A stretch of DNA of 60,854 nucleotides from Deltaproteobacteria bacterium. Lineage in GTDB: Bacteria; Desulfobacterota; B13-G15; RBG-16-54-18. The DNA lies in NCBI GenBank assembly GCA_019308925.1, contig JAFDHG010000014.1, positions 1-60,854 on the forward strand, read 5' to 3'. A program made the position numbers and the translations under genes. The notes under the pieces are model-generated. The model had not been told where the DNA came from. It saw only the letters and a program-made list of their open reading frames with translations, and did no database searches. Below, piece by piece: positions 3,963 to 60,854 of the stretch; position 1 is the stretch's first letter; each line of letters begins with the position of its first letter.

Positions 3963-5228
3963 TCACAGATCCAATCCCTTCCAAGGGAGCTCCCCTTCCT
4001 CTATGGTCCCCAAAAGGGTGAGACAGAGGGTACGGGAATCGAGCATCTCATGGGCTACATAGGCAATACCCTCTTCCGAAACCCCACCCAGTTCCTGCAG
4101 GGCCTCTTCCAGGGGTATGTGGCGGCTGAAATAGATCTCATTCTTGGCCAGCCTGCTCATTCTCCCCTCGGAACCTTCCAGGCTAAGTATCATACCCCCC
4201 CTTAGATATTCCTTGGCTGCCAACAGGTCCTCCGTCCTTATCCTCCCCGCCCTTATGGCCTTTAATTCTTGAAGAATTAAGGCAACTACCTCCTGTACCT
4301 CATCCTTGGTGGTGCCGGCATAGACCCCGAAAAGGCCGGTATCGGTATAGGTGTTGAGGAAGGAGTATATGCTATAGGCCAAACCCCTCTTCTCCCTGAT
4401 CTCCTGAAAGAGCCGTGAGCTCATGTTTCCCCCCAGCATGGTGTTCAGGGCATGGCCAGCAAACCTGAGACTGTGACCATAATGGATACCCTTGGTCCCT
4501 AGGCAGAAGTGAATCTGCTCTAGATCCCGGTATTTGACCTTTATCCGTACCTTTCCTCCCTGAGTCCCCTCACGCTTTGCCATAGAACGGCCAGGCTTGA
4601 GATGGCCGAGCTGGGCCTCTACCATCCTCACCATCTGTTGGTGATCCAGCCTCCCTGCTGCAGCCACGATCAGCTTGTCCGGGGTGTAGTTTTCCTGAAA
4701 GAAGGTGACGATCTGGTCGCGTTGGAAGGAGAGGACATTCTCCTGCGCCCCAGCTACCGGGTATCCCAGGGGGTGATCCCCCCAAAAGGAACGGTGGAAG
4801 AGGTCGTGGATGTAGTCATCGGGGGTATCCTCGACCATCTTTATTTCCTGCAGGACCACCATCCTCTCCCTCTCTATCTCCTGGGGGTCAAAGACGGAGT
4901 TGGCAAGGATATCGGCTAATATATCTATGGCCAAGACAACGTCTTTATGGAGGACCTTTGCATGGAGGCAGGTGTACTCCTTTCCGGTAAAGGCGTTGAT
5001 GCTTCCCCCCACCGACTCTATCTCCCTACTTATATCAAATGCGCTGCGTCTCTTCGTCCCCTTAAAGAGTAGGTGTTCAATGAAGTGAGAAAGGCCGTTC
5101 TCCCTGGCCTCCTCATCCCTGGACCCTGTGGTAATCCATATCCCAAGGGAGATTGACTCCAGGTTCGGGATCACCTCCGTCACCACCCTGATTCCATTAT
5201 CTAATACGCTCTTCTGATAGAGTCCCAT
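3963..5228 (-). CDS. M16 family (pitrilysin-like) zinc peptidase
   Basis: [11 protein letters not shown] (HxxEH), [20 protein letters not shown]; usual position downstream of pnp. Confidence 0.92.
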
Positions 5229-5502: not shown

Positions 5503-7626
5503 TCAAAACCTCTTCTCCTCACCTTCACGTCTCCCTCTTTGCCGCTCCTCTAATAGGACTGCCCGACGGCTCAACTTGATCTTGCCGTTGCTGTCTATCT
5601 CGATGACCTTTACCTTTATCTCATCCCCCATCCTTAGGACATCAGAGACTTTTCCCACCCTTCCCTCTGCCAATTGGGAGATGTGTACCAGACCTTCCAC
5701 CCCGGGTAGGATCTCAAGGAAGGCGCCGAAGTCAACGATCTTCTTGACCTTTCCCGTGTATACCCCCCCCACCTCTGCCTCCTGGGACGACTTCCTTACC
5801 AGGGCTATAGCCTCCTCGATGGCCTCGGCAGAAGGGGAGGCGATCTTTACAATCCCGCTATCCTCGACGTCCACCTTCACCCCTGTCTTTTCAACGATGG
5901 ACTTGATATTCTTACCCAAGGGTCCGATGACATCCTTTATTCGATCCGGGTTGATCTGGATGGTCACGATGCGGGGGGCGTGTTTGGAGAGGTCCTTTCT
6001 CGGCTTATCCAAGGTATTACTCATGGCATCGAGGACATAAAGTCGGGCCTCTCTGGCCTGGTGGAGGACCTTTTCCATGATGTCCCGACTAAGACCAGGA
6101 ATCTTCACATCCATCTGAAGGGCGGTGATCCCCTCTGTGGTCCCGGCCAATTTAAAGTCCATATCGCCGTGATGATCTTCGTCCCCGACGATGTCGGTGA
6201 GAATGGCCACCTGATCATCCTCCTTCATCAGGCCCATGGCGATACCTGCCACTGAGGCCTTTATGGGAACCCCTGCGTCCATCAAGGAGAGGCAACCGCC
6301 GCAAACAGTGGCCATGGAGGAGGAGCCATTGGACTCCAATACCTCAGAGACCACGCGGATGGTATAGGGAAACTCCTCGGCAGAAGGCAAAACAGGCAGC
6401 AGGGCCCTCTCGGCCAGGGCGCCATGTCCGATCTCCCGCCGGCTGGGTGAGCGCAAAAAGGATACCTCCCCTACACAGAAAGGGGGGAAGTTGTAATGGA
6501 GCATGAAGGTCTTATATATCTCCCCCTCCAAGAGGGACTCCACCTTCTGCTCGTCCTCAGATGTGCCGAAGGTGGTGACGGCCAAGACCTGCGTCTCTCC
6601 CCTGGTGAAGAGGGCTGAACCATGAGTACGAGGTAGTAGGCCCACCTCACAGCTAACCGGCCTGATGTCAACAAGACCCCTTCCATCGATTCTCTTTTTG
6701 TCCTTAAAGATGGAGGAGCGTACCACCTCTCGCTCAGCATCCTCAAAGGCCCTCTTCACCTCGGAGCTAAACTCTCTCTCTGCCCCGCCGAATCTCTCCA
6801 TGGCCTCCTGAAATATCTCGTTTATCCTGTCTCTGCGCTCAATCTTGCAAGAGATATGGAAGGCATCTTGAAGGAGGGGTTTTACAAATCCCTTCTCCTC
6901 CTCCCAGAGGGGACCACCCTCTCCCAGGGGGACGTACGGCCTTTTGTCCTTTCCGCAGATCTCCCTAAGCTCATCCTGTATGTCAAGGATCGGTTTGAGG
7001 GCCTCATAGCCATAGAAGATTGCCTCAAGAAGCACCTGCTCATCTACAATCCTGCCCCCTCCCTCTACCATCACCATCCCCTCTCTGTTCCCCGCTACGA
7101 TAAGGTCCAAGTCACTCCTTTCCAAATCGTCCGTAGTGGGATTGATAATAAAATCCCCGTCTGTTCTACCCACCTTGACCCCTGCAACAGGCCCCATAAA
7201 GGGGATGTTCGATGCCTGCAGGGCAGCCGAGGCCCCGATCATCCCCAAGATGGAGGGATCGTTCTGTTGATCGGCGGAAAGCACCGTGGCGATCACCTGG
7301 GTCTCGTTGAGGAATCCCTTGGGAAAAAGGGGTCTGATGCTCCTGTCTATCAGACGGGAGGAAAGGATCTCTCGGGCGGTAGGACGCCCCTCCCGCTTAA
7401 AGAAGCCCCCGGGGATCCGGCCTGCCGCATAGGTCATCTCAATATAGTTCACCGTTAGTGGGAAGAAGTCCACCCCCTCCCTCGGCTCCCTATTGGACAC
7501 CGCCGTGACCAAGACCACGGTCTCTCCATATTGGACAAGGATGGCGCCATCGGCCTGCCTGGCAACCCCCTCGGTCTCAATTGAAAGGTGCCGTCCAGCC
7601 CATTCTCTATCCACTTTCTTCTTCAT
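5503..7626 (-). CDS. pnp: Polyribonucleotide nucleotidyltransferase
   Basis: Two RNase PH domains (RIPGGFFKREGRP, ESNGSSSMA, GDMDFK), KH and S1. Start at 7626 chosen for RBS (AGGAG) spacing; the ORF track starts at 7635. Confidence 0.97.
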   Translation of the reverse strand: MKKKVDREWAGRHLSIETEGVARQADGAILVQYGETVVLVTAVSNREPREGVDFFPLTVNYIEMTYAAGRIPGGFFKREGRPTAREILSSRLIDRSIRPLFPKGFLNETQVIATVLSADQQNDPSILGMIGASAALQASNIPFMGPVAGVKVGRTDGDFIINPTTDDLERSDLDLIVAGNREGMVMVEGGGRIVDEQVLLEAIFYGYEALKPILDIQDELREICGKDKRPYVPLGEGGPLWEEEKGFVKPLLQDAFHISCKIERRDRINEIFQEAMERFGGAEREFSSEVKRAFEDAEREVVRSSIFKDKKRIDGRGLVDIRPVSCEVGLLPRTHGSALFTRGETQVLAVTTFGTSEDEQKVESLLEGEIYKTFMLHYNFPPFCVGEVSFLRSPSRREIGHGALAERALLPVLPSAEEFPYTIRVVSEVLESNGSSSMATVCGGCLSLMDAGVPIKASVAGIAMGLMKEDDQVAILTDIVGDEDHHGDMDFKLAGTTEGITALQMDVKIPGLSRDIMEKVLHQAREARLYVLDAMSNTLDKPRKDLSKHAPRIVTIQINPDRIKDVIGPLGKNIKSIVEKTGVKVDVEDSGIVKIASPSAEAIEEAIALVRKSSQEAEVGGVYTGKVKKIVDFGAFLEILPGVEGLVHISQLAEGRVGKVSDVLRMGDEIKVKVIEIDSNGKIKLSRRAVLLEERQRGRREGEEKRF

Positions 7627-56363: not shown

Positions 56364-56364
<1 letters not shown>
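54394..56364 (-). CDS. Membrane-anchored tetratricopeptide repeat protein
   Basis: Signal/TM segments, TPR-like helices (AISNLGNLYLALG..EKAIKLYEQA, YFNLSKA), CxxC...CxxC motif, C-terminal TMs. Confidence 0.78.
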
Positions 56365-58169
<1,805 letters not shown>

Positions 58170-58173
58170 CGGC

Positions 58174-58347
58174 ATGAGAACAAAAGGAATAAGGGCAGAT
58201 TGGAACAAATTCGAAGAGTGGGAAAGAAAATATACTATAAAAAATCTCAAGAAACTTACTCCAACAGAAAAGATTAAGATCTTAGAGGATCTTTATAAAA
58301 CAGCCCTGAAAGTGCGTGAAAGTTTAAGGAAAATGGATCCCAAATGA
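58174..58347 (+). CDS. 57-aa basic helical protein, antitoxin-like partner of the downstream nucleotidyltransferase
   Basis: Not in the ORF track. MRTKGIRADWNKFEEWERKYTIKNLKKLTPTEKIKILEDLYKTALKVRESLRKMDPK; stop overlaps the next ATG (ATGA). Confidence 0.55.
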   Translation: MRTKGIRADWNKFEEWERKYTIKNLKKLTPTEKIKILEDLYKTALKVRESLRKMDPK

Positions 58348-58735
58348 TTATTAAAACCCTGAAAGACATTGCTACAAGCCTTAACAGGGAAGGAATCCCA
58401 TTTATGGTAATAGGCGGCCAGGCAGTGGCCATTTATGGCAGACCAAGGTTTACACAGGGTATTGATATCACAGTTGCCTTGACCCCGGATGAGGCAGAAA
58501 AAATTCTCAGGGCTGTAGATGAATCATTTAATATCTTACCAGAAGATGTTCAAAGGTTTGTCAGAGAAACCTGGGTCTTGCCATTAGAACATAGGGAAAC
58601 AAAGGTATGGAGGTCCAAGGGGAAAAAATAGATATTGGAGAGATGGAAAGGCTAATAAAGACCTTTGGCACAGGTAAAGAAGGAAAAGAATGGCGGAAAA
58701 GATGGAAGAAGCTGAAAAAGGAGCTCAAAAAATAA
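58344..58735 (+). pseudogene. Nucleotidyltransferase (DUF6036/AbiEii-like) with internal deletion and frameshift
   Basis: FMVIGGQAVAIYGRPRFTQGIDI (GG...R.T.D.D-like; G at the first Asp position); frame breaks near 58605 and a plausible C-terminus EVQGEKIDIGEMERLIKTF... continues in another frame to TAA at 58733-58735. Confidence 0.62.
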
Positions 58736-58777
58736 CTGAAAAACATCCGCATACTGAGCAAAAGGTTGGGGGGGAAG

Positions 58778-58972
58778 ATGGATAAATCATCATCTCAAAA
58801 GTGGAAACATCCTGGGGGCAACCTCAGAGAACTTGGGCCAGAAAACCTTTCGGATGCCGATCTTCTTGCCATCCTGATCTCTTCGGGTATCAAGGGCAAA
58901 CCTGCGGAAAAGATTGCTGAAGAAATTCTCGCAAAATTCGGTTCATTTAAGGGAATGACAAACCGGCCTTAA
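58778..58972 (+). pseudogene. RadC N-terminal-like (HhH) small protein, copy 1, prematurely terminated
   Basis: HPGGNLRELGPENLSDADLLAILISSG....AE.IL..FGS; stops at NRP*; a KGLGD-like remnant follows out of frame. Confidence 0.7.
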
Positions 58973-59001
58973 AAAACTTTAGATAAGGGCTAGGTGATGA
59001 G

Positions 59002-59188
59002 ATGCCCTATCCGAATGATTTTGAAATCGGATGCAAAGTCAGAGTTGGAGAAAAGATAGGTGAAGTCATAAAAGTCGATGTTCGGGGGAACGGCTACTAT
59101 TATCAAAGTTGCCTTAGAAGAAGGACCGGCAAGGGGCATTGTCTTTCCACCTTCTAAAATAGAAAAATCCTTTCGCCAAATAACTTGA
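59002..59188 (+). pseudogene. Frameshifted N-terminal fragment of an unidentified large protein (possibly helicase-like)
   Basis: MPYPNDFEIGCKVRVGEKIGEVIKVDVRG then, after a frameshift, TATIIKVALEEGPARGIVFPPSKIEK; ends just before the inverted repeat. Confidence 0.3.
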
Positions 59189-59204
59189 CTTCTTTCATGT
59201 CAAT

Positions 59205-59238
59205 AGTATACTTAAGAGTATAATACTTCAAAGTATAC
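59205..59238. repeat. Left 34-bp inverted repeat
   Basis: AGTATACTTAAGAGTATAATACTTCAAAGTATAC; reverse complement matches 60640-60673 at 31/34. Confidence 0.9.
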
Positions 59239-59253
59239 AAATTTGAGGTTACT

Positions 59254-60636
59254 ATGTTTGTTAATAGGACTGGAGAGCTTAACTATCTGGAAAACTTATA
59301 TAAGAACAGAGGTGCCCGTCTTCTAATTATCTACGGGCGACGGAGGATTGGAAAAACTGAACTTCTTAAACAGTTTTCTAAGGACAAAAAGCACCTCTTT
59401 TTCTCCTCTGATCTTTCTTCCCAACAGGAGCAGTTAAGACAATTTACTGAAAGGATATATCAAATAACTGGGGAATCATTTCTAGAAACCCAACCTTTTA
59501 CTTCATGGGAGGCTTTATTCAGATATATTTTTGATCGTCTAACAGATAGGATTCCTCTTATTATAATTGATGAATTCCCTTACCTTTGTGTCAGCAATGA
59601 TGCTCTTCCCTCAGTATTGCAAAAAATATGGGATGAAAACGTCAAAAAAAGTAACATTTTCCTTGTGTTGTGTGGTTCTTATATGAGTTTTATGGAAAAA
59701 GAGGTTCTGGGACACAAAAGTCCTTTATTTGGGAGGCGAATTGGACAGATTGTTTTGCAATCCCTGCATCTTGAAGATCTTCGTGGTTTTTTCCCTAATT
59801 ATTCAAAGGAGGAAAGGGTTTACACTTATGCCATACTTGGTGGCACCCCCGCTTATCTCCAACGATTTGATGAAAAAAAGACCATAGAACAAAATGTAAA
59901 GGAGGAGATCCTGAGTAAGAATGCCTTTCTTTATAGTGAACCTCGCTTCTTGCTTGTAGAGGAGTTGCGAGAACCTTCCATATACTTTTCAATACTAAAA
60001 GCAATCGCCTTCGGAAAAACAAGATTAAATGAAATAGTTCAGGAAACAGGGATTGATGACAGGCACAAGGTTAATAAATACATCACAGTGCTTCGTGAAT
60101 TGCATATTGTAAGAAGGGAAGTACCCGTGACTGAAGAGAAACCACATAAATCCAGAAAAGGCATTTACATACTTGATGATCCCTTTTTTAGATTCTGGTT
60201 TAGATATCTTTTCCCAAATATGAGCTATCTTGAAGAAGGTGATATTGATTATGTGTGGGAAGAAAAAATAAAGTTCGGTTTTGATAGTTTTGTTGGGTTT
60301 ATATTTGAAGACATATGTATTCAGAAACTTAAGCGGTTAAACAGAGATAATAAACTTCCATTCAAGGCAAAAAATATTGGACGATGGTGGAATGGGAAAG
60401 ATGAAGTCGACATTGTTGCTTTAGATGGTGAGGGTTCTTTTATGTTTTGTGAATGCAAGTGGACGGCGAAAAAGATAGGTGTGAGTGTATTAGACGAACT
60501 AAAAAGAAAAGCAGATAAGTTTTCTGGAGTAACACGAAGATATCTTGGTTTCTTTTCCAAGTCGGGATTTAGCAATGAACTGGAGGACCTATCACGGAAA
60601 AGGGATGATATATTCCTCTTCCCCTTTGATGATTAA
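59254..60636 (+). CDS. Archaeal-type ATPase (STAND-like) with winged-HTH and C-terminal DUF234 PD-(D/E)XK nuclease-like domain
   Basis: Walker A YGRRRIGKT, Walker B IIIDEFPYL, VLCGS, GGTPAYL, HTH-like KTRLNEIVQETG...KYITVLREL, DPFFRFWFRY, GRWW...EVDIV...FCECKW. Confidence 0.9.
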   Translation: MFVNRTGELNYLENLYKNRGARLLIIYGRRRIGKTELLKQFSKDKKHLFFSSDLSSQQEQLRQFTERIYQITGESFLETQPFTSWEALFRYIFDRLTDRIPLIIIDEFPYLCVSNDALPSVLQKIWDENVKKSNIFLVLCGSYMSFMEKEVLGHKSPLFGRRIGQIVLQSLHLEDLRGFFPNYSKEERVYTYAILGGTPAYLQRFDEKKTIEQNVKEEILSKNAFLYSEPRFLLVEELREPSIYFSILKAIAFGKTRLNEIVQETGIDDRHKVNKYITVLRELHIVRREVPVTEEKPHKSRKGIYILDDPFFRFWFRYLFPNMSYLEEGDIDYVWEEKIKFGFDSFVGFIFEDICIQKLKRLNRDNKLPFKAKNIGRWWNGKDEVDIVALDGEGSFMFCECKWTAKKIGVSVLDELKRKADKFSGVTRRYLGFFSKSGFSNELEDLSRKRDDIFLFPFDD

Positions 60637-60639
60637 AGC

Positions 60640-60673
60640 GTATACTTTGAAATATTATACTTTAAAGTATACT
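60640..60673. repeat. Right 34-bp inverted repeat
   Basis: GTATACTTTGAAATATTATACTTTAAAGTATACT starting 3 bp after the stop; contains the perfect palindrome TATACTTTAAAGTATA. Confidence 0.9.
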
Positions 60674-60766
60674 GTATATGTCTTTTAGAATTTGGACTGC
60701 GACAAGACGATAAGAAGATACAAATGGGTAGGAGAACAGGGGAAAATTAAACTATGAGGTTAAAAA

Positions 60767-60854
60767 ATGGATTCATCATCTCAAAAGTGGCGACATCCTG
60801 GGGGAAAACTCAGAGAACTTGGGCCAGAGAGTCTTTCGGATACTGAACTTCTTT
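60767..60854 (+). CDS. RadC N-terminal-like small protein, copy 2 (partial, runs off the right edge)
   Basis: MDSSSQKWRHPGGKLRELGPESLSDTELL; 10 mismatches plus a 3-nt gap versus the copy at 58778 over about 90 bp. Confidence 0.75.
   Translation, partial: MDSSSQKWRHPGGKLRELGPESLSDTELL

What the first reader, a model, noticed from the sequence alone, without database searches (positions are those of the whole stretch)
59205..60673. ATPase-wHTH-nuclease gene tightly bracketed by 34-bp inverted repeats: candidate self-contained mobile or selfish element
Seen: one intact 460-aa gene has a 34-bp sequence ending 15 bp before its ATG (59205-59238), and the reverse complement starts 3 bp after its stop (60640-60673). 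The match is 31/34 as an inverted repeat versus 27/33 as a direct repeat. Much of the neighbouring DNA is broken gene fragments. Established: the Walker motifs, HTH segment and EVD...ECKW motif define the archaeal-ATPase/DUF234 (STAND-like NTPase + wHTH + restriction-endonuclease fold) family, which is lineage-expanded and has been proposed to be selfish, but has no defined end sequences that I know of. Inference: the repeats are the element ends, bound by the encoded wHTH and cut by its nuclease, making this a transposon-like unit with no DDE, HUH or tyrosine recombinase. Caveat: no target-site duplication is visible.
Basis: partly seen in the sequence, partly recalled or inferred. Interest (0 to 1): 0.82.

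Follow-up and report, generated by a model that had tools for sequence, protein, structure and literature searches.

The report
Self-regulated defence-like gene, not a transposon
The two 34-bp repeats around this ATPase-nuclease gene are most likely binding sites through which the protein controls its own promoter, not transposon ends. The gene still looks like horizontally moved cargo, dropped into a defence-gene hot spot with a long duplication of the target.

Summary
Arms 59205-59238 and 60640-60673 pair 31/34 and bracket a 460-aa ATPase_2+DUF234 gene (PADLOC candidate PDC-S27). Each arm is itself a palindrome of two tandem dyads, ATACTTnnnAAGTAT.

The transposon-end reading is not supported.
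- The left arm holds the -10 of the gene's promoter (TTGACT-16-TATACT), and the conserved -35 lies outside the arm.
- All 70 complete homologous loci have the left site. Only 21, almost all with proteins at least 74% identical, have the right site.
- Homologues at 29-43% identity carry different, internally symmetric dyads at the same promoter position and none downstream. The site therefore co-varies with the protein, as an autoregulatory operator would.

Mobility is supported, but the limits lie elsewhere. A direct repeat of at least 90 bp (the radC 5' end, 58775-58867 / 60764-60853) flanks a roughly 1.8-kb insert. A relative shows a 214-bp, 96% identical duplication of the yacL/ispD junction. 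Such repeats flank 7 of 43 units against 0 of 187 controls, as in the "insertion with long target duplication" described for restriction-modification genes.

Relatives of the host carry other defence genes, or none, at this guaB-adjacent spot. The function of the right site is inferred only.

The parts
57950..58773 (+). Decayed remnants of an older defence island next to guaB: an HsdR N-terminal-like fragment, a 57-aa ORF, and a DUF2204/AbiEii-like nucleotidyltransferase with an internal deletion.
   Evidence: tblastx shows it collinear with L116 5680-4577 and L114 5885-5675. Homology to L116 stops at about 58773. Weak DUF2204 hit.
58775..58867 (+). Upstream copy of the long direct repeat. It is the 5' end of a truncated radC-like gene (ORF 58778-58972, 65 aa). 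The repeat probably extends to about 58960, but its partner runs off the contig.
   Evidence: about 85-88% identical to 60764-60853. Pfam UPF0758_N 1.6e-11.
58973..59184 (+). Filler DNA between the duplication and the promoter. It holds a frameshifted small ORF of about 61 codons (59002-59197) and has no counterpart in other loci.
   Evidence: no tblastn hit in any locus. Homology to relatives starts only at about 59178-59185.
59185..59212 (+). Sigma-70-type promoter TTGACT (59185-59190), 16-nt spacer, TATACT (59207-59212). The -35 lies outside the left arm and the -10 inside it.
   Evidence: 10/12 match. The -35 is conserved in homologous loci.
59205..59238 (.). Left palindrome (L): two tandem dyads, ATACTTaagAGTAT and ATACTTcaaAGTAT, 15 bp centre to centre. 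Proposed autoregulatory operator.
   Evidence: Present in all 70 complete homologous loci. The half-sites change with the protein in distant homologues.
59254..60636 (+). 460-aa AAA+ ATPase (ATPase_2) + winged helix + PD-(D/E)xK nuclease-like DUF234 domain. PADLOC phage-defence candidate PDC-S27.
60640..60673 (.). Right palindrome (R): a second copy of the double dyad, 3 nt after the stop codon, with no -35 box at promoter spacing. Proposed auxiliary operator (function inferred).
   Evidence: Present in 21 of 70 complete loci. The boxes are conserved and the inter-box bases are free. The hairpin is not conserved.
60764..60853 (+). Downstream copy of the long direct repeat. It is the start of the radC-like gene (ATG 60768), which runs off the contig end.

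Best explanation
The locus is a single-gene, horizontally acquired module of the ATPase_2+DUF234 family (PADLOC candidate PDC-S27). The protein combines an ORC/Cdc6-like AAA+ ATPase, a winged helix and a C-terminal PD-(D/E)xK nuclease-like domain.

**Left repeat.** It is not an element end. It is a double-dyad operator laid over the gene's own sigma-70 promoter: -35 outside the repeat, -10 and the likely transcription start inside it. The protein most likely binds there through its winged helix and represses its own, potentially toxic, expression. This step is inferred from position, conservation and co-variation. No binding was shown.

**Right repeat.** It is a second copy of the same operator placed just after the stop codon, found almost only in the window's branch of the family. 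It is kept under selection. It most likely serves as an auxiliary site, either for DNA looping with the left site or as a protein roadblock that insulates the module from neighbouring transcription. This step is the weakest inference.

**Mobility.** The module moved as passive cargo. About 1.8 kb (filler, promoter, gene, right site, 90 bp) sits between two copies of the 5' end of a radC-like gene. This is the 'insertion with long target duplication' pattern known for restriction-modification genes. The site is a guaB-adjacent hot spot where relatives carry other defence genes.
For: **Promoter and operator**
- TTGACT-16-TATACT overlaps the left arm.
- All 70 loci with a complete homologous gene have the left site, with 0-7 mismatches to the consensus. 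The -35 and the three GTATA boxes are the best-conserved non-coding positions, and the inter-box triplets are free.

**Co-variation with the protein (homologues at 29-43% identity)**
- The Rhodothermus plasmid has TATACTCnnnGAGTATA twice, the same change in all four half-sites.
- L090 has TTAACTnnnnAGTTAA twice.
- L088 has TTTACTTgaaAGTAAA.
- Fusobacteria, Vescimonas and Cetobacterium have AAATTATnATAATTT repeats.
- Bacteroides, Vibrio and Halobacterium have other dyads.
- All of these sit just upstream of the start codon, and none has a copy downstream.

**Protein**
- AlphaFold2 gives mean pLDDT 88.3.
- The best PDB matches are the archaeal AAA+ ATPases 2qen and 2fna, followed by ORC/Cdc6 (AAA+ plus a DNA-binding winged helix). 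Card1/Can2/Cdn1 also appear among the weaker matches.
- PDC-S27 matches at 2e-55.

**Right site under selection**
- Its boxes are kept in proteins down to about 74% identity, while the DNA just beyond it differs between contexts.

**Mobility**
- G+C is 0.36 against 0.53.
- Homologues occur in KSB1, Aminicenantes, Aerophobetes, Atribacterota, Caldisericota, Fidelibacterota, WOR-3 and Bacillota.
- Direct repeats flank 7 of 43 units, against 0 of 180 pseudo-units in the window and 0 of 7 pseudo-units in the loci.
- In L100 a 214-bp, 96% identical duplication preserves the intact yacL-stop/ispD-start junction in both copies, inside the radA-yacL-ispD-ispF cluster.
- Host relatives with guaB 88-89% identical carry type I RM + OLD, MmeI-like RM + DUF2204, or only trmI at this spot.
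- The pattern is described for RM genes in PMC2853133.
Against: - No binding, repression or cleavage was measured. The operator role rests on position and co-variation alone.
- The function of the right site is unknown. Looping and roadblock are guesses, and it could be a decaying relic.
- A few rearrangement breakpoints fall at the palindrome edges. L030 and L053 lose homology 0-3 nt before the left site. L031/L032 have a deletion ending inside the right site. L001 keeps a head-to-tail remnant of gene 3' end, right site, 53 nt, then left site. This hints that the sites may be break-prone or recombinogenic.
- No empty radC allele of the window's own organism could be retrieved. The contig ends inside the downstream repeat.
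- Some flanking repeats in other loci (L060, L063, L078) lie in non-coding repetitive DNA and may not be target duplications.
- The one PDC-S27 representative tested in E. coli was not among the systems that protected against T4, T5 or T7 (PMC12881386). 'Defence' is therefore a label by association.
Confidence: 0.68

Rival explanations
1. The two 34-bp arms are the termini of a transposon-like unit. The encoded winged helix binds them and the PD-(D/E)xK domain cuts them, moving the gene without a DDE, HUH, tyrosine or serine recombinase.
For: - The arms bracket the gene tightly.
- Homology between the window and its closest relatives ends at the outer edge of the right arm, at 60671-60675.
- Two loci (L030, L053) break homology 0-3 nt from the outer edge of the left arm.
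- L001 carries a head-to-tail R-53 nt-L junction.
- The gene is clearly horizontally mobile.
- Furuta et al. report some RM genes flanked by inverted repeats in a transposon-like form.
Against: - The conserved -35 of the gene's own promoter lies outside the left arm. An element ending at the arm would lose its promoter.
- The right arm is absent in 49 of 70 complete loci, including clades that are equally spread across phyla, and in all distant homologues examined.
- The flanking duplications lie 47-342 bp away from the arms.
- No short duplication abuts the arms.
- The motif occurs nowhere else in the 61-kb window or in viral contigs.
Confidence: 0.07
2. The palindromes are break-prone or recombinogenic sites, through cruciform processing or an unlinked recombinase. 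They promote cassette-like exchange and tandem duplication of the gene, in addition to or instead of regulation.
For: - Breakpoints lie at or inside the sites in L030, L053 and L031/L032.
- L001 carries the remnant of gene 3' end + right site directly upstream of its promoter.
- L012 has a second left site and gene start downstream.
- Right-hand breakpoints among 92-95% identical units begin about 8-12 nt beyond the right site.
Against: - Most left breakpoints fall at or beyond the -35 box, and at many different distances from -21 to -256.
- Right breakpoints are also scattered (+46, +90, +113, +170).
- Only a handful of events touch the sites.
- No recombinase is linked.
Confidence: 0.1
3. 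The right arm acts at the RNA level as a terminator or stabilising 3' hairpin, and its likeness to the left arm is incidental.
For: - It sits 3 nt after the stop codon.
- In the window it folds to -13.4 kcal/mol, z = -2.2.
- No other terminator-like site follows the gene.
- Distant homologues without a right site do have G+C-rich hairpins downstream.
Against: - In relatives the hairpin is weak or no better than shuffles: L003 folds to -6.9 kcal/mol, z = -0.05.
- Conservation follows the three boxes shared with the left site, not pairing partners.
- The stem is A+U-rich and no U-run follows it.
Confidence: 0.07
4. The right arm is a functionless relic: the operator of a lost tandem copy, or a product of gene conversion from the left site.
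For: - Tandem remnants exist in L001 and L012.
- The right site is usually more degenerate than the left, at 6-10 against 0-4 mismatches.
- It has been lost by deletion in L031/L032.
Against: - It keeps a fixed position 3-6 nt after the stop codon.
- Its boxes are conserved across proteins from 74% to 89% identical, a divergence at which neighbouring neutral DNA is unalignable.
- It lacks the -35 and spacer that a relic promoter would bring.
Confidence: 0.1

Closest known systems
PADLOC phage-defence candidate PDC-S27 (Pfam ATPase_2 PF01637 + DUF234 PF03008; COG1672 'archaeal ATPase')
   Same: The full-length HMM matches at 2e-55, and both Pfam domains are above cut-off. The Walker A/B and PD-(D/E)xK residues are intact. 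It is a single-gene system found in defence-island contexts. The family is described as abundant in archaea and bacteria (PMC12988326).
   Different: In the papers searched here I found no description of cis elements for this family. The promoter-overlapping double dyad, its co-variation with the protein, and the clade-specific second copy after the stop codon appear to be new descriptions. Anti-phage activity remains unshown: the representative tested was not among the protective systems in PMC12881386.
Insertion with long target duplication of restriction-modification genes (Nobusato et al. 2000; Furuta, Abe & Kobayashi 2010, PMC2853133)
   Same: A nuclease-bearing defence-type gene sits without any transposase or integrase. 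It is flanked by direct repeats longer than 30 bp that are copies of the target (radC 5' end here; the yacL/ispD junction in L100). Insert G+C is below the host's, and repeat lengths vary from case to case.
   Different: The cargo is a single ATPase-nuclease gene, not an R+M pair. No uninterrupted allele was retrieved for direct comparison. The repeat copies here are 79-96% identical, so the events are older or the copies came from different sources.
Controller (C) protein / C-box autoregulation of restriction-modification systems (from my own knowledge; only reference titles were seen, in PMC3874152)
   Same: Two adjacent palindromic sites lie over the promoter of a gene whose product is dangerous when over-expressed. 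The site sequence is specific to the cognate protein.
   Different: Here the presumed DNA-binding part is a winged helix inside the effector protein itself, not a separate small Xre-type regulator. There is an extra site after the stop codon. Binding is untested.
ORC/Cdc6-type AAA+ winged-helix proteins and the archaeal AAA+ ATPases PABY2304 (2qen) and SSO1545 (2fna)
   Same: These are the best structural matches: TM-score 0.63-0.64 on the target, Foldseek E-value 1e-10 to 1e-9. ORC/Cdc6 follow at E-value about 1e-7 to 1e-5. The AAA+ plus winged-helix architecture binds specific DNA repeats.
   Different: Sequence identity is only 11-18%. There is an added C-terminal PD-(D/E)xK domain. Nothing suggests a replication role.
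IR-bounded insertion sequences and MITE-like elements
   Same: An imperfect inverted repeat lies on both sides of one gene.
   Different: There is no transposase and no short target duplication next to the arms. The arms are internally palindromic, the promoter -35 lies outside the left arm, and one arm is missing in most homologues.

Membership tests
PDC-S27 / ATPase_2+DUF234 family | Match to the family's profile models over the full length | tested here: met
   PADLOC PDLC04984 2e-55, residues 2-427. Pfam PF01637 93.1 bits (cut-off 33.2) and PF03008 99.1 bits (cut-off 22.5).
PDC-S27 / ATPase_2+DUF234 family | Intact Walker A/B and PD-(D/E)xK catalytic residues | tested here: met
   G28-T35 (GRRRIGKT), D106/E107, E352, D386 and E400-C401-K402 are invariant in a 20-sequence alignment reaching down to 41% identity.
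PDC-S27 / ATPase_2+DUF234 family | Protection against phage | not testable with these tools
   The one representative tested in E. coli B against T4, T5 and T7 was not among the four protective systems (PMC12881386).
IR-bounded DNA transposon | Inverted repeats form the outer limits of the mobile DNA | tested here: not met
   The conserved -35 lies 15 nt outside the left arm. The flanking duplications are 47-342 bp away from the arms.
IR-bounded DNA transposon | Short target-site duplication directly next to the arms | tested here: not met
   None is seen in the sequence next to the arms.
IR-bounded DNA transposon | Encoded transposase or recombinase (DDE, HUH, tyrosine, serine) | tested here: not met
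   Only ATPase_2, AAA-type domains, DUF234 and a sub-threshold DUF4143 hit were found. The neighbouring small ORFs have no such hits.
IR-bounded DNA transposon | Both arms present wherever the element occurs | tested here: not met
   The right arm is present in 21 of 70 complete loci and in none of 16 distant homologues examined.
IR-bounded DNA transposon | Several copies in one genome | not testable with these tools
There is one copy in the 61-kb window.
Insertion with long target duplication (Furuta 2010 criteria) | Direct repeats longer than 30 bp flank an insert shorter than 20 kb that holds no other mobility gene | tested here: met
   Window: at least 90 bp around about 1.8 kb. L100: 214-234 bp at 96% around 1.87 kb. 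Enrichment is 7 of 43 against 0 of 187.
Insertion with long target duplication (Furuta 2010 criteria) | The repeat aligns to a single copy in a related genome that lacks the insert | tested here: inconclusive
   No uninterrupted allele was retrieved. Exact-protein look-ups for L100 ispD and yacL returned only the same contigs. Indirect support: both L100 copies keep the yacL-stop/ispD-start junction. Host relatives lack the gene at the guaB locus but also lack radC there.
Autoregulatory operator (C-box-like) | Dyad sites overlap the promoter of the regulated gene | tested here: met
   The -10 TATACT (59207-59212) lies inside the left dyad, and the second dyad covers the expected start site.
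Autoregulatory operator (C-box-like) | Site sequence changes together with the cognate protein | tested here: met
   Different symmetric half-sites occur at the same position in homologues 29-43% identical. The site is near-invariant within the 60-89% clade.
Autoregulatory operator (C-box-like) | The gene product binds the site and changes transcription | not testable with these tools
   Needs EMSA or footprinting and reporter assays.
Intrinsic terminator (for the right arm) | G+C-rich stem followed by a U-run, with the stem kept by compensatory change | tested here: not met
   No terminator-like site was found after the gene. The hairpin in L003 is no better than shuffles. Conservation follows the boxes, not the pairs.

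The most novel reading that the evidence does not exclude
The palindromes do double duty. Besides regulating the promoter, they are sites where the encoded AAA+/winged-helix/nuclease protein nicks or breaks DNA in cis. This would seed tandem or circular head-to-tail forms (as in the L001 remnant) and insertion with long target duplication. If so, PDC-S27 genes would be self-mobilising 'nuclease cassettes' without a classical recombinase.
Probability: 0.08. Interest if true: 0.85.

Novelty: new member of a known kind. Interest (0 to 1): 0.4.

Why it matters
PDC-S27 (ATPase_2+DUF234) genes are reported among the most prevalent candidate defence systems in archaea and are common in bacteria (PMC12988326). 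Nothing is known about how they are controlled or how they spread. This locus and about 100 relatives give three concrete handles:
- a cognate double-dyad operator that co-varies with the protein, which gives a ready binding assay and a way to switch the gene on for functional tests;
- a clade-specific second site after the stop codon;
- evidence that a non-RM nuclease gene spreads by the same 'long target duplication' insertions that Kobayashi's group described for restriction-modification systems.

It also removes a tempting but wrong reading, namely a new recombinase-free transposon.

Tried and rejected
Paralogues and solo palindromes in the window's own genome could not be counted.

**Searches that gave nothing useful**
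- An exact-protein look-up of the window's ATPase found nothing.
- Two look-ups were wasted on minus-strand coordinates that were off by one codon. The corrected ones returned only the same contigs, so no empty-site allele was found for L100.
- Sequencing runs: none hold the 2.1-kb stretch. With the gene alone, five runs hold at most 6% of the words.
- Laying those runs' contigs on the window showed only the KSB1-type relative. Its 'goes back 1470' joint is the fixed head-to-tail remnant of L001, not an excision product of this organism.
- The palindrome has no exact match in viral contigs. Phage records hold only distant homologues at 38% identity or less.
- PDB sequence search gave no hit, and NCBIfam gave none.
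- The 212-bp filler upstream of the promoter and the other small ORFs have no counterpart in any fetched locus.

**Ideas considered and dropped**
- The right arm as a copy of the whole promoter: there is no -35 at usable spacing.
- The right arm as an intrinsic terminator.
- The flanking repeats as chance: 0 of 187 controls show them.
Full report
**1. The observation**

The sequence is as described. The repeat finder reports arms 59205-59238 and 60640-60673, 34 nt, 91% complementary. Read as a direct repeat, the same pair is 82% identical over 33 nt. The left arm ends 15 nt before the ATG (59254), and the right arm begins 3 nt after the TAA (60634-60636).

The pair scores both ways because each arm is itself a palindrome. 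Each is two 14-bp dyads, ATACTTnAAAGTAT, set 15 bp apart. With up to 2 mismatches this dyad occurs 8 times in the 60,854-bp window, counting both strands, and all 8 lie inside the two arms. Shuffles give 0.81 expected, and none of 100 reaches 8.

The gene is intact at 460 aa. Pfam gives ATPase_2 at 2.9e-26 and DUF234 at 2.2e-28.

**2. The left arm is the gene's promoter and operator**

- A sigma-70-type promoter, TTGACT (59185-59190), 16 nt, TATACT (59207-59212), scores 10/12. The -10 lies inside the left arm and the -35 lies 15 nt outside it.
- I fetched 25 loci from genomes and 71 from metagenomes that encode relatives. In all 70 loci with a complete gene 60-89% identical to the window's, the same 33-bp site sits before the start codon, with 0-7 mismatches to the consensus.
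- Across 60 distinct upstream sequences, the best-conserved non-coding positions are the -35 and the boxes GTATACTT / AGTATAATACTT / AGTATAC. The three bases between boxes vary freely. That pattern fits a protein-binding dyad.
- An earlier first-stage note on the same genome (e1-5216077) reads the promoter the same way.

**3. The site changes with the protein**

Homologues only 29-43% identical carry different, internally symmetric sites at the same place:

| Locus | Site upstream of the start codon |
|---|---|
| Rhodothermus marinus plasmid (L104) | ATTATACTCcagGAGTATAATACTCtcgGAGTATAAT, with T to C in all four half-sites |
| L090 | TTAACTttatAGTTA-T-TAACTctaaAGTTAA |
| L088 | TTTACTTgaaAGTAAA |
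| Fusobacteria, Vescimonas and Cetobacterium plasmids | two to four AAATTATnATAATTT units at a 16-nt period |
| Bacteroides | GATTATCTTTgtgAAAGATAATC |
| Vibrio | GTTACTGTAA-N6-TTACAGTAAC |
| Halobacterium | two TTAGT-N4-ACTAA-type units |

None of these has a copy after the stop codon. Several have ordinary G+C-rich hairpins there instead.

Co-variation of a promoter-proximal dyad with the encoded protein is what an autoregulatory operator predicts.

The protein has the parts for it. The AlphaFold2 model (mean pLDDT 88.3) matches the archaeal AAA+ ATPases 2qen and 2fna best. ORC/Cdc6 follow, which are AAA+ proteins with a DNA-binding winged helix. Card1/Can2/Cdn1 also appear among the weaker matches. 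The Walker and E..D..ExK residues are invariant. Binding itself is inferred, not shown.

**4. The right arm is a clade-specific second copy**

- Of the 70 complete loci with at least 50 nt of 3' flank, 21 have an R-like site 3-6 nt after the stop codon. All but one of these proteins are at least 74% identical to the window's.
- The large Atribacterota clade (about 72-73% identical), the 77% group (L004, L005, L040) and everything at or below 70% lack it.
- Where present, it keeps the three boxes (consensus GTATACTcTggAaTATAATACTTatgAGTATA), although neighbouring DNA is unalignable between contexts. It therefore appears to be selected.
- It has no -35 at promoter spacing.
- As RNA it folds well only in the window (-13.4 kcal/mol, z = -2.2). 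In L003 it is no better than shuffles, and no U-run follows. A terminator role is therefore unlikely.
- My best guess is an auxiliary operator, for looping with L 1.4 kb away or as a roadblock that insulates the module. This is the least secure step of the explanation.

**5. The gene is mobile, but the arms are not its limits**

*Foreign origin.* The unit has G+C 0.36, against 0.53 for the rest of the contig. Proteins 60-89% identical occur in MAGs labelled KSB1, Aminicenantes, Aerophobetes, Clostridia/Bacillota, Fidelibacterota, Atribacterota, Caldisericota and WOR-3, some on contigs of 40-260 kb.

58775-58867 matches 60764-60853 at about 85-88% with one 3-nt indel, and the match runs into the contig end. 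The upstream copy is the first 65 codons of a radC-like gene (UPF0758_N, 1.6e-11). The downstream copy is the start of a radC-like gene that leaves the contig. About 1.8 kb lies between them: 212 bp of filler with a frameshifted small ORF, then promoter, gene, right arm and 90 bp more.

*A cleaner case in a relative.* On a 67-kb metagenome contig (L100) the gene sits inside the conserved radA-yacL-ispD-ispF cluster. A 214-bp repeat at 96% identity (234 bp with a weaker edge) flanks it. Both copies keep the yacL-stop/ispD-start junction. The upstream copy carries a 39-codon yacL tail and the downstream copy an ispD head.

*Enrichment.* Direct repeats at blastn E < 1e-3 flank 7 of 43 units that have 800-nt flanks. 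They flank 0 of 180 pseudo-units in the window and 0 of 7 shifted pseudo-units in the loci. Some of them (L060, L063, L078) lie in repetitive non-coding DNA and may be a different thing.

*Distance from the arms.* In every case the repeats are 47-325 bp from the left site and 49-342 bp from the gene end, with unrelated DNA between.

*Precedent.* This is the 'insertion with long target duplication' pattern described for type I-IV restriction-modification genes: repeats over 30 bp, no other mobility gene, and repeat lengths of 46 to about 420 bp (PMC2853133).

**6. The site is a defence hot spot**

The host is a Thermodesulfobacteriota / 'Deltaproteobacteria'-type MAG lineage, judged from guaB. 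Relatives with guaB 88-89% identical keep guaB-TPR-PatA_N-dnaE on one side. On the other side they carry one of three things:
- type I RM plus an OLD nuclease (L114);
- a DUF2204/AbiEii-like gene plus an MmeI-type RM (L116);
- only trmI (L117, L118).

The window's 57950-58773 is collinear with the L116 island, with an internal deletion in the DUF2204 gene. That homology stops at about 58773, two bases before the radC repeat begins. The locus is therefore not vertically conserved.

The protein matches PADLOC's candidate PDC-S27 at 2e-55. This family is abundant, especially in archaea (PMC12988326). Its one tested representative was not among the systems that protected E. coli B against T4, T5 or T7 (PMC12881386).

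**7.

Points in its favour:
- Homology between the window and its closest relatives runs from about 59178 (the -35) to 60671-60675, the outer edge of R.
- Among units 88-95% identical in different contexts, most left breakpoints fall at the -35 or at scattered distances further out (-21 to -256). Two loci (L030, L053) break 0-3 nt from the outer edge of L and have lost the -35.
- L031 and L032 have a deletion between two ATACTT repeats, one of them inside R.
- L001 keeps a remnant made of gene 3' end + R, then 53 nt, then L, which is a head-to-tail junction. It shows up as a 'goes back' joint in contigs of three public runs of that relative.

These few events hint that the palindromes may be fragile or recombinogenic. 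I give that a separate 10%.

Points against arm-to-arm transposition:
- The -35 lies outside the left arm.
- R is absent in most of the family.
- The duplications do not abut the arms.
- No copy number could be shown.

**8. Limits**

- No run from the source sample is served.
- No empty radC allele was found.
- All functional statements on binding, repression, looping and cleavage are inferences.

**Verdict**

It is wrong on the key claim that the repeats are transposon ends.

The best reading is an autoregulated PDC-S27 gene with a promoter-overlapping double-dyad operator and a clade-specific second copy after the stop codon. It was inserted as cargo with a long target duplication into a guaB-adjacent defence hot spot.

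Noticed in passing
window 56364-58773; loci L114, L116, L117, L118: The DNA next to guaB is a variable defence hot spot in this lineage. Relatives with guaB 88-89% identical carry type I RM + OLD nuclease, or DUF2204 + MmeI-type RM, or only trmI. The guaB-TPR-PatA_N-dnaE side is conserved throughout.
   Followed up: partly
L001 3832-3896 (= L097 4084-4148) and L097 4010-4067 / 5745-5802: In the KSB1 relative, a diverged (81%) copy of the gene's last 30-odd nt plus the right palindrome sits 53 nt upstream of the left palindrome, as a head-to-tail remnant. A 58-nt copy of the 5' part of the downstream 35-codon ORF lies further upstream. Together these suggest past tandem or circular forms.
   Followed up: partly
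L030 about 1586-1589; L053 about 2400; L031/L032 gene 3' end: Two loci have lost the -35 box, with homology starting 0-3 nt from the outer edge of the left palindrome. Two others carry a deletion between ATACTT repeats that removes the gene's last codons and most of the right palindrome.
   Followed up: partly
L060 2501-2802 / 4500-4800; L063 2490-2801 / 4486-4800; L078 971-1109 / 2832-2969 and further copies: In Atribacterota-type loci the gene is flanked by 300-bp direct repeats in DNA with only short stop-to-stop frames. These also have inverted partial copies nearby. L078 has a multi-copy repeat array downstream. They may be a separate repeat family rather than target duplications.
   Followed up: no
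L012 4694-4768: A second left-type palindrome plus gene start (77% identical to window 59203-59272) lies about 110 nt downstream of the first gene, that is, tandem paralogues.
   Followed up: no
window 59002-59197: A small ORF is broken by a frameshift. Joined, it reads MPYPNDFEIGCKVRVGEKIGEVIKVDVRGNGYYY / KVALEEGPARGIVFPPSKIEKSFRQIT. It has no Pfam hit. A 43-nt piece (59093-59135) recurs in contigs of other metagenomes with different flanks.
   Followed up: partly
window 56364-57980 (- strand): The longest guaB ORF is 538 aa, but all homologues are 486-508 aa and cover 89-91% of it. The true start is therefore probably about 50 codons downstream of the first ATG.
   Followed up: no
L097 8455-12096 and L116 345-4406: MmeI-type (type IIG) RM genes lie near the DUF234 gene in the KSB1 relative and occupy the equivalent island position in a relative of the window's host.
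   Followed up: no
L036 2453-3874: A 474-codon ORF (MKVPTNIMAVGIDPAKQ...) lies about 480 bp downstream of the DUF234 gene and looks like an IS110-type transposase. A 63-nt sequence repeated on both sides of that unit also occurs downstream of L002. The ORF was not scanned against Pfam.
   Followed up: no
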